Numbered from the stretch's first letter, positions 55,513 through 58,091 are shown. The stretch: DNA of 64,000 nt from Escherichia coli (GCF_003334785.1 NZ_QOWV01000003.1), one strand, 5' to 3'. Numbers and translations are program-made. The notes: generated from the letters alone by a model not told the origin.

Positions 55513-56013
55513 TTAGAGTGGTTGTTTAAGTTCGGTTAAAACCATATCTATGGTGTATATAATAATAAGTACACCACTAATCGGGATGCTCATATAGATA
55601 TATCCCATTTGCCAGCCTAAAGCGGGCGAGGTCTGACCTGAATCGAATGTATCCATCGTTAATAGCCCACCACCATATACCATAATGATGGTTGCGAAGA
55701 TAATAACGATAATCTGAATACACAAAAATAAATGACGTCGGGCTTTTCCTTTCAGCATCATAGGTAGCAGGTCAATCGCCAGATGCCGGTTTTGCCCTGC
55801 GGTGTATGCCCCACCAAAAAGTCCAAGACAAATAAAGAGCAAACGGCTGAGTTCATCTGTAAAAATACTGGGACTAGTAAATATAAATCGTGCAGCCACC
55901 TGCCACGTCACACATGCCACGATGATCGCCAAAATGGTAATGTTCAATGCTGCAAGCAGAGCATTAATAGATCTAATTATATTTCGCATAGTGATTAACC
56001 TTTGCAATATCAT
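55513..56013 (-). CDS. TRAP transporter small permease (DctQ family)
   Basis: Track ORF of 166 aa with four hydrophobic segments; its start overlaps the stop of the upstream FAD gene (ATGA). The true start could be the internal Met nine codons in. Confidence 0.75.
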   Translation of the reverse strand: MILQRLITMRNIIRSINALLAALNITILAIIVACVTWQVAARFIFTSPSIFTDELSRLLFICLGLFGGAYTAGQNRHLAIDLLPMMLKGKARRHLFLCIQIIVIIFATIIMVYGGGLLTMDTFDSGQTSPALGWQMGYIYMSIPISGVLIIIYTIDMVLTELKQPL

Positions 56014-58091
56014 TCATCCTGTGGCTGGTAAATTGTCCCATTAAGAAAACCAGGCCAGTTTTTTTCAAACCAAATACCTCGGATAATAGGAAACTCACGA
56101 ACAGGTGTTTCTCTGACGTGAAAGATACCGTTGCAATAATGAATAAGTAGTTTATCTTTTTTATCCTCAGTACGCTCTGAACGAAAGCGCCAGGCATCAC
56201 AAAAACCATTTCGTGTTTGCGGAATAGAATTTCCATCCCTGTCGAGAATAATACGTGCTCCCCGACTACCACCACCTGCGTCAATATAATGCGTTAATTG
56301 CGTTAATACGGCGGCAGAAGTCAGTGCCATATGCCGCCACATAAACAGCTCGGCAACTTCACCCACATGTTTGATAGCCAATCCATGCCGTTGGACAAAT
56401 TCGCTCAATAGCAGGGCATCGCGAGTGGCGCGTCGGACTTTATCGGCATGGCAAATAAATCCCGCATGGTCAGACATTCGTGCCTGAATTTTTTCTCTCA
56501 CAACCGACAACGGCATCCCGGTCCCGTTATCGTGCGCCTGAGTAATGATCTCTCTTATAGAAGCCAGTGTAGGAGCTACCAGCTGTGCTATATCTCCATC
56601 AATATTCCGCTTTTGCGTGCAACCAATAAAACGTGCCAGACGAACAGCAAAAACCTGCCCGGCATTCAATGCTGCACCACCAGGGCGAGTGACGCCGTGT
56701 GTGCCAGCAACTTCCCCCACGGCGAAACAGCCGGGCAGGGAGGTTTGTCCCCAGATATCCACTTCAATGCCGCCATTCATATGCTGATTATTCATGGCAA
56801 ACTGCAAAGGCTGTGTGGTGAGATCGTAACCGTGCATCTTATACAGCGAGATAGACAGCGGATTCATTCGTTGCAGCCGTTCGATGGGCGATGGTGCCAG
56901 AGCGTCGTTATTTTCCAGATACGCGCGAACGTCGTCGTCCAGTCGATCTAATGAGAACGGCAGGTCACCCGGCACCGCTTCAGGATTGCGATTGAAATCC
57001 ATAAATACCTGACGCCCTGATTGCTGCTCTTGCGCTACTGCCATATCTAACAAGCTGGAGCCAAAATCCATCACCCGAGTGGCGTGGAACGGCCACTGAT
57101 AGCCTTTACGGAAAATGTTTGAAGCCAGCTCCTGGGTGGTGCGATAGTAATCCGCGAGGAAGTTATACTCGTTACCCTCAGCATCCACGGAATAGATATA
57201 CGGGATCACCTGTACATAGGTACCGGATAAATTCCACGGAAACGTGCTACGCGGCGTGCCTATACCAAACTGGCTTTCGGTCAGATTGGTTAGCGTCAGG
57301 CCTTCCTCCAGCGCCAGCCCCAGCGAGCCAAAACATTTGTGTGGGTACACACTGTCGCGATAAAGCTCGCCAGGCCCTCCTGTTGCCAGTACCACATTGG
57401 GCGCAGTCACAATTGCCAGCCCCCAAGGGTTATGGGCGCGATGACCGGTCGCGAGGATTGCCCCCGCAACACGGTCTTCGCCGTTTTCGTCACGCTGATG
57501 CAGCAGTTTAATCACTGTTGCACTGGTCAACACTGGAATGGCGAGGCGCTGTACTTCTTCCAACAGCACTTTCACCATTAACCTTGAGGTACGCGGCCCA
57601 CACGAGGTTGCACGCCCGGCTTCGTCATGGTCGGTTTGATAACGAAGAATCGCGCCATAGCGATCTTCCGGTAATTCCAGACCAAGATATTGCAACCCGC
57701 CAAGAGTGTGCAGAGAACCTACCGCTTCGACATAAGCGGTGTCGTGATCCATCGCCCCACCGCTCGCCAGTGCCTCTGCCAGTTTGGTGAAGTTGTCGCC
57801 GTTGCCCGCGGTAGCGGCGGTAAACAGTGTCTGTTTATCGGAACCAGAACATGCCGACGTCCCCATATATAACCCGGCGGTGGCGATCAGCACATTTTGC
57901 TGGCGGCGTTTAAGTTCCACAGCTGCACGCAGCCCGGCTGCACCACTGCCGACTACCAGGGCATCTGTTTGCCAGAGTGGGTAATCAACACCGTCTACCG
58001 TGACAACCCATGCGGGCTCTGCCTGTGCAAAACCCTTTGGGAAAGTAACGTGCGTCAGCGCATCAAGGATGGTGTCATCAAGCTGACTCAT
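56010..58091 (-). CDS. FAD-dependent oxidoreductase of the fumarate-reductase/succinate-dehydrogenase/3-ketosteroid-dehydrogenase flavoprotein superfamily (693 aa; long for the family)
   Basis: Track ORF with a dinucleotide-binding motif near the N-terminus (DALVVGSGAAGLRAAVEL) and a second Gly-rich FAD-contact segment (GCFAVGEVAGTHGVTRPGGAALN); about 200 extra C-terminal residues have no assignment. Confidence 0.7.
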   Translation of the reverse strand: MSQLDDTILDALTHVTFPKGFAQAEPAWVVTVDGVDYPLWQTDALVVGSGAAGLRAAVELKRRQQNVLIATAGLYMGTSACSGSDKQTLFTAATAGNGDNFTKLAEALASGGAMDHDTAYVEAVGSLHTLGGLQYLGLELPEDRYGAILRYQTDHDEAGRATSCGPRTSRLMVKVLLEEVQRLAIPVLTSATVIKLLHQRDENGEDRVAGAILATGHRAHNPWGLAIVTAPNVVLATGGPGELYRDSVYPHKCFGSLGLALEEGLTLTNLTESQFGIGTPRSTFPWNLSGTYVQVIPYIYSVDAEGNEYNFLADYYRTTQELASNIFRKGYQWPFHATRVMDFGSSLLDMAVAQEQQSGRQVFMDFNRNPEAVPGDLPFSLDRLDDDVRAYLENNDALAPSPIERLQRMNPLSISLYKMHGYDLTTQPLQFAMNNQHMNGGIEVDIWGQTSLPGCFAVGEVAGTHGVTRPGGAALNAGQVFAVRLARFIGCTQKRNIDGDIAQLVAPTLASIREIITQAHDNGTGMPLSVVREKIQARMSDHAGFICHADKVRRATRDALLLSEFVQRHGLAIKHVGEVAELFMWRHMALTSAAVLTQLTHYIDAGGGSRGARIILDRDGNSIPQTRNGFCDAWRFRSERTEDKKDKLLIHYCNGIFHVRETPVREFPIIRGIWFEKNWPGFLNGTIYQPQDE

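What the first reader, a model, noticed from the sequence alone, without database searches (positions are those of the whole stretch)
56010..58091. Unusually long (693 aa) FrdA/KstD-superfamily flavoprotein inside a CoA-thioester operon
The dehydrogenase/reductase partner of CoA-transferase plus enoyl-CoA hydratase is normally an acyl-CoA dehydrogenase-fold enzyme. Here it is a fumarate-reductase/3-ketosteroid-dehydrogenase-type flavoprotein with an N-terminal GSGAAG dinucleotide motif. It is about 100-200 residues longer than typical soluble members, with an unassigned C-terminal region (roughly the last 200 aa). No membrane anchor or Fe-S subunit genes accompany it, so it is probably a soluble enoate-reductase or desaturase-type enzyme. 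Its stop overlaps the DctQ start and its start overlaps the CoA-transferase stop (ATGA in both cases), implying translational coupling.
Basis: inference. Interest (0 to 1): 0.5.

Follow-up and report, generated by a model that had tools for sequence, protein, structure and literature searches.

The report
Uncharacterised FrdA-fold flavoprotein in CoA operon
This is a real, intact E. coli gene for a soluble flavoprotein with the fumarate-reductase fold that has lost the fumarate-binding residues; it belongs to a large family of unknown function and sits in an uncharacterised organic-acid catabolic operon that about 58% of E. coli strains carry and K-12 has lost.

Summary
The ORF (56010..58091, minus strand, 693 aa) is a real gene in an E. 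coli chromosome window. It is annotated only as "FAD-dependent oxidoreductase" and is present in 3126 of 5426 complete E. coli genomes.

It is neither a frameshift fusion nor unusually long for its own family. At least 422 clusters (50% identity) share its 640-700 aa length and its C-terminus. The "unassigned" C-terminal 200 aa are the helical and C-terminal domains of the SdhA/FrdA fold (AF2 pLDDT 92; Foldseek and hhalign).

It lacks the covalent-FAD histidine and three of the four FrdA/NadB substrate residues. Only the residue equivalent to Arg390 is kept. It is therefore not a fumarate reductase, succinate dehydrogenase or aspartate oxidase.

The ATGA overlap with the CoA-transferase stop is conserved in Klebsiella and Salmonella. 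The claimed overlap with DctQ is not conserved.

Across 80 related loci the commonest partners are an SDR, KdgK/Eda-like, GFO and OYE-like genes. CoA enzymes are less frequent but recur in several phyla. One E. coli variant replaces the crotonase with a MaoC hydratase.

Best reading, which is an inference: a flavin-dependent alpha,beta-(de)saturation on a CoA-activated, hydroxylated (sugar-acid-like) carboxylate. The substrate is unknown.

The parts
56010..58091 (-). Flavoprotein gene (693 aa, stop included; RefSeq WP_000080339.1, 'FAD-dependent oxidoreductase')
   Evidence: ORF and translation; 100% match to annotated E. coli genomes; AF2 model with pLDDT 91.9 and pTM 0.93
57969..58091 (-). 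Codons 1-41: N-terminal extension (short helix plus beta-hairpin) that precedes the Rossmann GxGxxG motif and is absent from FrdA/SdhA/NadB
   Evidence: DSSP of the model. The hhalign match to FrdA starts at residue 36. More distant relatives align only from about residue 30-45
56667..57968 (-). Codons 42-475: FAD-binding plus capping domains (Pfam FAD_binding_2). Family signature residues: GSDKQT 83-88, K329-G-Y-x-W-P, Q436-H437-x-N-G-G, R469-P-G-G
   Evidence: Pfam; invariant columns of the 38-sequence alignment; hhalign to FrdA/SdhA/NadB
56013..56666 (-). Codons 476-693: helical domain and C-terminal beta domain of the SdhA/FrdA fold. It includes GGGSRG (R610), which aligns with FrdA ESRGAH
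   Evidence: hhalign aligned through query residue 617 = FrdA 539; Foldseek alignments of about 690 columns to SDHA/FrdA; region conserved across the family
58088..59629 (-). Fused family-I CoA-transferase (513 aa, YdiF/FadX-like). Its stop TGA overlaps the flavoprotein ATG
   Evidence: NCBIfam; PDB YdiF 2ahu, E=1e-113; junction sequence
59639..60415 (-). Enoyl-CoA hydratase (crotonase family). Both catalytic Glu motifs are present by inspection (GGGIELAL, NPEVMLG)
   Evidence: NCBIfam; RefSeq coordinates; translation
60425..61267 (-). Xylose-isomerase-like TIM-barrel protein ('sugar phosphate isomerase/epimerase')
   Evidence: PDB 3qc0/3ju2 at E=1e-84 and 7vpf at 1e-60, none with an assigned function; weak NCBIfam hits only
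61277..62068 (-). SDR oxidoreductase (NCBIfam PRK12745, 417 bits, cut-off 250). This is the most frequent neighbour of the flavoprotein family
62281..62928 (+). Divergent TetR/AcrR regulator. Its 3' end overlaps ytfB. The K-12 pseudogene ytfA is its truncated remnant
53145..55989 (-). TRAP transporter genes dctQ (55513-55989), dctM (54169-55470) and dctP (53145-54116). GC is 43-45%, against 51-55% for the enzyme genes
   Evidence: The start of dctQ was revised
53055..53081 (.). Bidirectional intrinsic-terminator-like hairpin between dctP and the convergent rplI. It marks the end of the operon

Best explanation
What is shown. The gene encodes a cytoplasmic, soluble flavoprotein with the complete four-domain SdhA/FrdA/NadB fold. 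Its FAD is non-covalently bound. It belongs to a large clade of unknown function, which has its own invariant motifs. It has lost the dicarboxylate-binding and catalytic set of fumarate reductase and aspartate oxidase, apart from one arginine (Arg469) and a neighbouring histidine (His437).

What is inferred. In E. coli it is the redox enzyme of a TetR-controlled operon: SDR, TIM barrel, enoyl-CoA hydratase, CoA-transferase, flavoprotein, TRAP transporter. The proposed sequence is as follows. The TRAP system imports a hydroxylated, probably cyclic or sugar-acid-like carboxylate. The CoA-transferase, which is translationally coupled to the flavoprotein, converts the acid or a derivative of it to a CoA thioester. 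The flavoprotein then moves a hydride between FAD N5 and the carbon beta to the activated carbonyl, which is held by Arg469/His437. That makes (or reduces) an alpha,beta double bond. The hydratase adds water across that bond. The SDR and the TIM barrel oxidise and isomerise or dehydrate hydroxyl/keto positions. The transferase passes CoA on to the next substrate molecule. In this reading the flavoprotein takes the place that an acyl-CoA dehydrogenase usually holds. The substrate, the direction of the reaction and the electron partner are not known.
For: Fold and cofactor. FAD_binding_2 and GxGxxG are present. The AF2 model has pLDDT 91.9. Foldseek finds SDHA/FrdA first, with TMt 0.73-0.79. hhalign to FrdA/SdhA/NadB gives probability 99.9.

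Not a fumarate or aspartate enzyme. FrdA His44 and His232-Pro-Thr fall in gaps. Arg287 aligns to Ser345/346. His355 aligns to Gln436. Only Arg390 is kept, as Arg469. All NCBIfam equivalogs score 4-10 fold below their cut-offs.

A distinct, conserved clade. There are 422 clusters at E<=1e-30 of similar length, with invariant family motifs. All AFDB relatives are unnamed.

The CoA link. The ATGA overlap with the CoA-transferase is conserved in E. coli, Klebsiella and Salmonella, and the same five enzymes sit at the same ytfB-rplI site. An E. coli variant lacks the crotonase gene but has a MaoC hydratase. CoA-transferase, hydratase or ACAD/ETF genes lie next to family members in a Devosia (L030), a Planctomycetota MAG (L064), a Desulfobacterales MAG (L067), a Clostridia MAG (L078) and a betaproteobacterium (L010).

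An anionic, sugar-acid-like substrate. The closest solved relatives of DctP are TRAP binding proteins of the EFI set (4ovr, 4x8r, 4n8y; E=1e-71 to 1e-68). From my memory of Vetting et al. 2015, these are uronate binders. Klebsiella and Salmonella use an ACS-family (DgoT-like) MFS instead. Family members elsewhere are flanked by KdgK-like, Eda-like, GFO and sugar ABC genes.
Against: No substrate, product or cofactor has been measured.

Most family members (about 73 of 80 loci) have no CoA enzyme within 9 kb. The Brenneria module has an SDR 74% and a TIM barrel 71% identical to the E. coli proteins, yet it has only SDR-TIM-flavoprotein plus an MFS. The flavoprotein may therefore act on the free acid or on a ketone.

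Crotonase and MaoC hydratases have opposite stereospecificity. A simple like-for-like replacement is therefore not straightforward.

No FrdA-fold enzyme is known to me to use acyl-CoA substrates.

The hhalign alignment within the capping domain is of low confidence. An acid/base residue such as the invariant Arg405 or Lys329 could sit elsewhere.

No electron acceptor or donor is encoded in the island.
Confidence: 0.4

Rival explanations
1. The flavoprotein works on a free, non-CoA substrate. It desaturates or oxidises next to a ketone or carboxylate produced by the SDR or GFO dehydrogenase and the TIM barrel. The chemistry would resemble 3-ketosteroid dehydrogenase or the malate-to-enol-oxaloacetate reaction. 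The product feeds a 2-keto-3-deoxy-acid (KdgK/Eda) route. In enterobacteria the CoA-transferase and hydratase would be an add-on that handles a later intermediate.
For: SDR is the commonest neighbour (28 of 80 loci). KdgK-like genes are adjacent in 17 loci, a levoglucosan-dehydrogenase-like GFO in 15, and an Eda-like gene in 12. Brenneria, Pseudescherichia, Phytobacter, Mangrovibacter, Lentisphaeria and Opitutia have SDR/GFO-TIM-flavoprotein modules without CoA genes.
Against: The start/stop overlap with the CoA-transferase is strictly conserved in three enterobacterial genera. CoA enzymes were recruited independently in several phyla, and the crotonase was replaced by a MaoC hydratase in one E. 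coli variant. Relatives at 37-59% identity may not share the same substrate.
Confidence: 0.33
2. It runs in the fumarate-reductase direction as a soluble ene-reductase. It reduces an alpha,beta-unsaturated acid, thioester or enone, for example one made by the hydratase acting as a dehydratase. Electrons come from NAD(P)H through a separate flavoprotein. The role would be deoxygenation or an electron sink.
For: A natural fusion joins an OYE-like FMN/4Fe-4S domain to this family (P0150, 1084 aa). OYE-like genes lie adjacent in Phycisphaerae, Bacteroidia and Firmicutes loci. The family is common in strict anaerobes such as Clostridia, Victivallis, Halanaerobium, Desulfobacterales and an Asgard archaeon. 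Known OYE plus FAD_binding_2 NADH:enoate reductases are an analogy from my own knowledge, not a test made here.
Against: The E. coli, Klebsiella, Salmonella and alphaproteobacterial loci contain no OYE or other donor gene. The family also occurs in aerobes such as Rhizobium and Rhodobacteraceae. Direction cannot be read from sequence.
Confidence: 0.15
3. It is an L-aspartate-oxidase-like amine (C-N) oxidase acting on an amino acid or amino-sugar acid.
For: NadB models and structures are among the best sequence matches. Like NadB, it has no covalent-FAD histidine and is soluble.
Against: The NadB catalytic residues His244, Arg290 and His351 are not conserved. They align with the lost FrdA His232, Arg287 and His355. 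TIGR00551 scores 101 bits against a cut-off of 453. No deaminase or aminotransferase context was seen in any of the 80 loci.
Confidence: 0.04
4. It is an ordinary fumarate reductase, succinate dehydrogenase or aspartate oxidase paralogue, or an artefactual fusion of two genes.
For: Some database entries name homologues 'succinate dehydrogenase flavoprotein subunit'.
Against: The catalytic residues are missing and there are no Fe-S or anchor genes. The canonical frdA lies elsewhere in the same window, at 7098-8906. Length is conserved across phyla, and the model is a single compact structure with pTM 0.93.
Confidence: 0.01

Closest known systems
Complex II flavoprotein subunits FrdA/SdhA (E. 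coli FrdA lies in the same window at 7098-8906)
   Same: The four-domain fold is the same over about 690 aligned columns, with TM-score up to 0.79 normalised to the target. The Rossmann GxGxxG is present. The residues equivalent to Arg390 and to the ESRGAH motif are conserved. hhalign probability is 99.9.
   Different: Sequence identity is only 17-26%. There is no covalent-FAD histidine. The equivalents of His232, Arg287 and His355 are lost. There are no Fe-S or membrane subunits. It has an extra N-terminal hairpin of about 40 aa and insertions in the capping domain.
L-aspartate oxidase NadB
   Same: It is soluble, has non-covalent FAD and lacks the covalent-FAD histidine. NadB is among the best sequence hits.
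   Different: It is about 150 aa longer. The NadB catalytic residues are not conserved. The TIGR00551 score of 101 bits is far below the 453-bit cut-off. The genomic context is catabolic, not NAD biosynthesis.
Thiol:fumarate reductase TfrA (best NCBIfam hit, NF004900)
   Same: It is the best-scoring curated model at 126.5 bits, and it is a soluble member of the same superfamily.
   Different: The cut-off is 718 bits, so it is not an orthologue. No TfrB-like partner is present.
Soluble FAD_binding_2 ene-reductases and desaturases: flavocytochrome c3 fumarate reductase, urocanate reductase, 3-ketosteroid dehydrogenase (own knowledge)
   Same: The proposed chemistry is the same: flavin N5 hydride transfer at a C-C bond alpha,beta to a carbonyl or carboxylate. 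Flavocytochrome c3 (1qo8) is hit over the N-terminal part only.
   Different: Those enzymes lack the SdhA-type helical and C-terminal domains that this protein has. No cytochrome or FMN_bind domain is present here.
Acyl-CoA dehydrogenases (functional analogue only)
   Same: It occupies the operon position next to a CoA-transferase and an enoyl-CoA hydratase. In related locus L010 true ACAD plus ETF genes co-occur with the TIM barrel and the flavoprotein.
   Different: The fold is unrelated. Activity on CoA thioesters has not been tested.

Membership tests
SdhA/FrdA/NadB flavoprotein superfamily (fold level) | N-terminal Rossmann GxGxxG FAD-binding motif and the FAD_binding_2 domain | tested here: met
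   VGSGAAG at residues 46-52; PF00890 at residues 43-475, E=8e-28
SdhA/FrdA/NadB flavoprotein superfamily (fold level) | FAD, capping, helical and C-terminal domain architecture | tested here: met
   AF2 model with pLDDT 91.9; Foldseek alignments of about 690 columns to SDHA/FrdA, TMt 0.73-0.79; hhalign probability 99.9 over query 36-617
Fumarate reductase / succinate dehydrogenase flavoprotein (FrdA/SdhA) | Histidine carrying covalent 8-alpha-FAD (FrdA His44) | tested here: not met
   In the profile-profile alignment the His falls in a gap. The family consensus is GT---SxNxGSDKQT
Fumarate reductase / succinate dehydrogenase flavoprotein (FrdA/SdhA) | Dicarboxylate-binding and catalytic residues His232, Arg287, His355 and Arg390 | tested here: not met
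   His232-Pro-Thr is deleted. Arg287 aligns with Ser345/346 (low-confidence region). His355 aligns with Gln436. Only Arg390 is kept, as Arg469
Fumarate reductase / succinate dehydrogenase flavoprotein (FrdA/SdhA) | Adjacent Fe-S subunit and membrane-anchor genes | tested here: not met
   None are in the island. The canonical frd operon lies about 48 kb away in the window
Fumarate reductase / succinate dehydrogenase flavoprotein (FrdA/SdhA) | Score above the curated NCBIfam cut-off | tested here: not met
   TIGR01812 scores 80.7 bits against 567. NF006686 scores 44 against 854
L-aspartate oxidase (NadB) | Score above the curated cut-off, and conserved His244, Arg290, His351 and Arg386 | tested here: not met
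   TIGR00551 scores 100.7 bits against 452.75. Only the Arg386 equivalent is kept
L-aspartate oxidase (NadB) | L-aspartate oxidation activity | not testable with these tools
   This needs an enzyme assay
Uncharacterised 'GSDKQT' clade of FAD_binding_2 proteins (defined here) | Invariant motifs GSDKQT, W-N-x-SG-x-Y-x-Q, K-G-Y-x-W-P, Q-H-x-N-G-G, R-P-G-G and SRG, with length about 640-700 aa | tested here: met
   Invariant columns in 38 diverse members include all of these in the query. There are 422 clusters at E<=1e-30. 595 of 600 genomic pattern matches were confirmed
   The evidence is contextual only: the conserved overlap with the CoA-transferase, and recurrent CoA genes nearby

The most novel reading that the evidence does not exclude
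An FrdA-fold flavoprotein has taken over the acyl-CoA dehydrogenase (or enoyl-CoA reductase) role. It would work in a thiolase-less cycle in which the CoA-transferase recycles CoA. That cycle would define a previously undescribed, CoA-dependent route for catabolising a sugar-acid-like or hydroaromatic carboxylate in Enterobacteriaceae. Related versions in other phyla would feed KdgK/Eda. This would be the first assigned function for a clade of several hundred sequence clusters that spans bacteria and at least one archaeon.
Probability: 0.25. Interest if true: 0.7.

Novelty: new variant of a known kind. Interest (0 to 1): 0.45.

Why it matters
This operon is present in more than half of sequenced E. 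coli, and in Klebsiella oxytoca, K. grimontii and many Salmonella. It is absent from K-12, where only the ytfA pseudogene scar remains, so it has escaped classical genetics.

The flavoprotein belongs to a large, widely distributed clade for which I found no characterised member. Its fold is famous, but its active site has been rebuilt.

Finding the transported acid and the reaction would do three things. It would assign a function to hundreds of gene clusters, many of them in gut and marine polysaccharide-degrading bacteria. It could reveal a new way of handling hydroxylated acids through CoA esters. It would also explain a common difference in metabolic capacity between E. coli strains.

If instead the enzyme turns out to be a routine ene-reductase on a known metabolite, the gain is a useful annotation rather than new biology.

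Tried and rejected
1. Ordinary FrdA, SdhA, NadB or TcuA orthologue. Rejected on curated score cut-offs and on loss of the catalytic residues.

2. Frameshift fusion of two genes. Rejected because length is conserved across phyla and the model is a single compact structure. A few database entries (P0002, P0034, P0086) do fuse CoA_trans with this protein. These are probably frameshifts at the ATGA overlap in individual assemblies.

3. Novel C-terminal domain. Rejected: it is the FrdA helical and C-terminal domains.

4. Anti-phage defence role. There were no PADLOC hits.

5. Literature. Searches by RefSeq accession, PDB code (7VPF, 3JU2, 3QC0), SMc04130, gene-set keywords, sugar-acyl-CoA names and 'dihydroshikimate' found nothing about this operon or family.

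6. The cyclohexanecarboxyl-CoA lead. The pathway from shikimate involves a CoA-activating enzyme and a 'FAD-dependent dehydratase' (Skyrud et al., ACS Catal 2020, cited in PMC13304725). This is an attractive analogy, but the paper is not held. I could not establish which fold that dehydratase has, so the lead remains untested.

7. Specific substrate guesses. I considered unsaturated or 4-deoxy uronates, L-iduronate, 1,5-anhydroglucitol-derived acids, 3,6-anhydrogalactonate, quinate/shikimate and 5-deoxyglucuronate against the gene sets. None accounts for all five enzymes, and none could be tested.

8. An operator palindrome in the TetR-SDR intergenic region. None was found at the settings used.

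9. The small cupins in L067 and L078 as KdgF-like enzymes. They gave only generic cupin hits.
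Full report
**Observation**

The window is an E. coli chromosome segment. The query region is 100% identical to strain ML35 and several others. An ATG-started ORF of 693 codons lies at 56010..58091 on the minus strand. It carries VGSGAAG at residues 46-52. Pfam assigns only FAD_binding_2 (residues 43-475, E=8e-28) and nothing to residues 476-693. RefSeq calls it "FAD-dependent oxidoreductase", WP_000080339.1.

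It is the fifth gene of a co-directional set between ytfB and rplI:
- an SDR (NCBIfam PRK12745, 417 bits, above the cut-off)
- a xylose-isomerase-like TIM barrel
- a crotonase-type enoyl-CoA hydratase
- a fused family-I CoA-transferase (YdiF-like; PDB 2ahu, E=1e-113)
- the flavoprotein
- TRAP dctQ, dctM and dctP

A TetR gene is transcribed divergently. A hairpin terminator closes the operon at 53055-53081.

The flavoprotein start overlaps the CoA-transferase stop (GCATGAGT, preceded by GGAGGA). The same overlap is present in another E. coli lineage, in Klebsiella oxytoca and in Salmonella.

The upstream ATG is changed to ATA and followed by an in-frame TAA in E. coli SCPM-O-B-8794. RefSeq starts dctQ 21 nt further on, at window 55989.

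**Is it unusually long, or a fusion?**

No. A search of 1.84 billion cluster representatives finds 3309 relatives at E<=1e-3 and 422 at E<=1e-30. Full-length ones are mostly about 640-700 aa and align from about residue 30 to about residue 689. Orthologues in Klebsiella, Salmonella, Citrobacter, E. albertii and E. marmotae are 689-698 aa.

An AlphaFold2 model built on a 38-sequence alignment is a single compact structure (mean pLDDT 91.9, pTM 0.93). The best solved-structure matches are SDHA and FrdA over about 690 alignment columns, with TM-score 0.73-0.79 normalised to the target and 17-18% identity.

A profile-profile comparison with FrdA (taken from this same window, 7098..8906), SdhA and NadB gives probability 99.9 and aligns query 36-617 to FrdA 1-539. 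The "unassigned" C-terminal third is therefore the helical and C-terminal domains of the fold. The GGGSRG motif (R610) matches FrdA ESRGAH.

The extra length relative to FrdA (602 aa) has three sources: an N-terminal helix and hairpin of about 40 aa, a short insertion after the GSDKQT loop, and insertions in the capping domain.

**What it is not**

The histidine that carries covalent FAD in FrdA/SdhA falls in a gap, as do FrdA His232-Pro-Thr. FrdA Arg287 aligns with Ser345/346, although this part of the alignment is of low confidence. His355 aligns with the invariant Gln436, with the invariant His437 beside it. Only Arg390 is retained, as Arg469.

Every curated NCBIfam model for TfrA, NadB, SdhA, FrdA or flavocytochrome c scores far below its cut-off. 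The best is TfrA, at 126.5 bits against 718. The island contains no Fe-S or anchor genes.

It is therefore a superfamily member but not a fumarate reductase, succinate dehydrogenase or aspartate oxidase. No family-wide conserved cysteine pattern exists, so it has no Fe-S cluster of its own.

**The family**

The clade has its own invariant residues: GSDKQT 83-88, Y151-x-T-D, W286-N-x-S-G-x-Y-x-Q, K329-G-Y-x-W-P, Q436-H-x-N-G-G, R469-P-G-G, R610-G and E676.

A back-translated pattern scan of one genome per species confirmed 595 of 600 matches. They come from Enterobacterales, Rhizobiales, Rhodobacterales, Betaproteobacteria, Planctomycetota, Lentisphaerota, Verrucomicrobiota, Firmicutes, Desulfobacterales, Spirochaetes and others.

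AFDB relatives include gut Clostridia, Victivallis, Succinatimonas, Coriobacterium and an Asgard archaeon. All carry only generic names. No paper in the held library mentions these proteins (and others).

**Genomic context**

I called ORFs in the 80 loci and clustered them. CoA-transferase and crotonase are not the usual partners: they occur in 5 and 7 loci, and two of those loci are Escherichia. The frequent neighbours are:
- the same SDR family (28 loci)
- a KdgK-like kinase (17 loci, usually directly adjacent; 262 bits against a 400 cut-off)
- a levoglucosan-dehydrogenase-like GFO enzyme (15 loci; 304 bits against 650)
- two GMC oxidoreductases with a sugar ABC transporter and LacI (alphaproteobacteria)
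- an Eda-like aldolase (12 loci)
- the TIM barrel (12 loci)
- OYE-like FMN/Fe-S flavoproteins (Phycisphaerae, Bacteroidia, Firmicutes)

These assignments rest. One protein (P0150, 1084 aa) is a natural fusion of the OYE-like domain to this flavoprotein.

Other enterobacteria (Pseudescherichia, Phytobacter, Mangrovibacter) have TetR | SDR-GFO-TIM-MFS-flavoprotein. Brenneria has only TetR | SDR-TIM-flavoprotein-MFS, with an SDR 74% and a TIM barrel 71% identical to those of E. coli.

**The CoA link is nevertheless real**

- Klebsiella oxytoca and Salmonella carry the same five enzyme genes at the same ytfB-rplI site.
- A second E. coli variant (88% allele) has lost the crotonase gene, but a MaoC-type hydratase follows the transporter gene.
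- A betaproteobacterium has ECH ... MaoC-ACAD-EtfB-EtfA-TIM-flavoprotein.
- A Clostridia MAG has flavoprotein-CoAT-ECH-cupin-SDR-CoAT.
- A Desulfobacterales MAG combines ECH, two SDRs, MaoC, CoAT and two ACADs with the flavoprotein and with sugar-acid dehydratase/aldolase-like genes.
- A Planctomycetota MAG has ECH, a family-III CoA-transferase, the flavoprotein and an Eda-like gene.

As a rough estimate (inference), a YdiF-like transferase would be expected by chance in fewer than one of 80 such windows.

**Substrate class**

The transporters differ between lineages:
- a TRAP system in E. coli
- an ACS-family MFS in Klebsiella and Salmonella (D-galactonate-transporter subfamily, 315 bits)
- AAHS-like MFS in Brenneria and Pseudescherichia
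- sugar ABC systems in alphaproteobacteria

The closest solved relatives of E. coli DctP are EFI TRAP binding proteins (4ovr, 4x8r, 4n8y). I recall these as glucuronate/galacturonate binders (Vetting et al. 2015). That is memory, not something tested here.

Together these point to an anionic, hydroxylated, probably ring-forming carboxylate, either sugar-acid-like or hydroaromatic. I could not identify it.

The E. coli TRAP genes have 43-45% GC against 51-55% for the enzyme genes. Only 1468 genomes carry this dctP allele in full, while 3123 carry the flavoprotein gene in full. The transporter cassette was evidently swapped.

**Mechanism (inference)**

The retained Arg469/His437 pair and the fold suggest the standard chemistry of this superfamily: hydride transfer between FAD N5 and the carbon beta to an activated carbonyl. 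This would make or reduce an alpha,beta double bond.

In enterobacteria the conserved coupling to the CoA-transferase, and the requirement for a hydratase, make a CoA thioester the most likely substrate. On that reading the flavoprotein stands in for an acyl-CoA dehydrogenase, and the transferase recycles CoA. I rate this at 0.4.

The main rival, at 0.33, is action on a free keto- or hydroxy-acid produced by the SDR or GFO enzyme and the TIM barrel, with the product feeding a KdgK/Eda route.

A reductive, OYE-fed ene-reductase role is possible (0.15), and may apply in the anaerobe subclades.

An amine-oxidase role, or an ordinary FrdA/NadB role, is unlikely.

**Distribution and verdict**

The flavoprotein gene is in 3126 of 5426 complete E. 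coli genomes, and the hydratase gene in 3135. K-12 has lost the island. Its ytfA pseudogene is the 3' two-thirds of the TetR gene (99% identity), and a 100-bp remnant of the SDR gene survives at 81% identity.

The gene is a distinct, uncharacterised variant of a well-known fold, set in a common but unstudied E. coli operon. It is moderately interesting, and experiments are feasible in existing strains.

Noticed in passing
window 62526-62927 (TetR gene) and 61878-61979 (SDR gene); L082 (K-12 MG1655) 3588-4096: The K-12 pseudogene ytfA is the truncated 3' two-thirds of this island's TetR regulator (99% identity). A 102-bp remnant of the SDR gene (81% identity) lies beside it. K-12 has replaced the whole operon with yjfZ.
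   Followed up: yes
window 7098-8906 (minus strand): The canonical fumarate reductase flavoprotein gene frdA (602 aa) lies in the same window, about 48 kb away. I used it as an in-window comparator. The two proteins share only about 26% identity over a partial alignment.
   Followed up: yes
window 53145-55989; L086, L087, L088: The transporter cassette is mosaic. E. coli ML35-type strains have low-GC TRAP dctQMP. Klebsiella oxytoca, Salmonella and a second E. coli lineage have an ACS-family MFS at the same position. Only 1468 of about 3120 island-positive complete genomes carry this dctP allele in full.
   Followed up: partly
L088 (E. coli, 88% allele) 5303-5463 and 10506-12867: This island variant lacks the crotonase gene, leaving a 160-bp gap. 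Downstream of the MFS it has a MaoC-type hydratase and a HipA/HipB-like toxin-antitoxin pair.
   Followed up: partly
protein P0150 (1084 aa): This is a natural fusion of an OYE-like FMN/4Fe-4S domain (residues 1-445) with a member of this flavoprotein family (446-1041). It matches the separate OYE-like genes that flank the family in Phycisphaerae, Bacteroidia and Firmicutes loci.
   Followed up: partly
E. coli genomes NZ_CP182145.1, NZ_CM177009.1, NZ_CP029574.1 (dctP) and NZ_CP116046.1 (hydratase gene): IS1 insertions split dctP or the enoyl-CoA hydratase gene in some strains. The operon is therefore being inactivated in some lineages.
   Followed up: no
proteins P0002 (1078 aa), P0034 (973 aa), P0086 (1043 aa): Some database entries fuse CoA_trans and this flavoprotein into one ORF. 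These are most likely single-base frameshifts or assembly errors at the ATGA overlap, not a real fusion.
   Followed up: no
window 52557-53123 (minus strand, 188-aa TTG ORF): This long ORF, as listed mechanically, lies antisense to rplI (plus strand, about 52584-53033) and is almost certainly spurious.
   Followed up: no
L017, L021, L023, L029, L039 and other alphaproteobacterial loci: A conserved, apparently undescribed sugar-catabolic cluster recurs: sugar ABC transporter, two cytoplasmic GMC oxidoreductases, a Dabb protein, LacI, a levoglucosan-dehydrogenase-like GFO, the flavoprotein, a KdgK-like kinase, and sometimes an Eda-like gene or an ALDH. Its substrate is unknown.
   Followed up: partly
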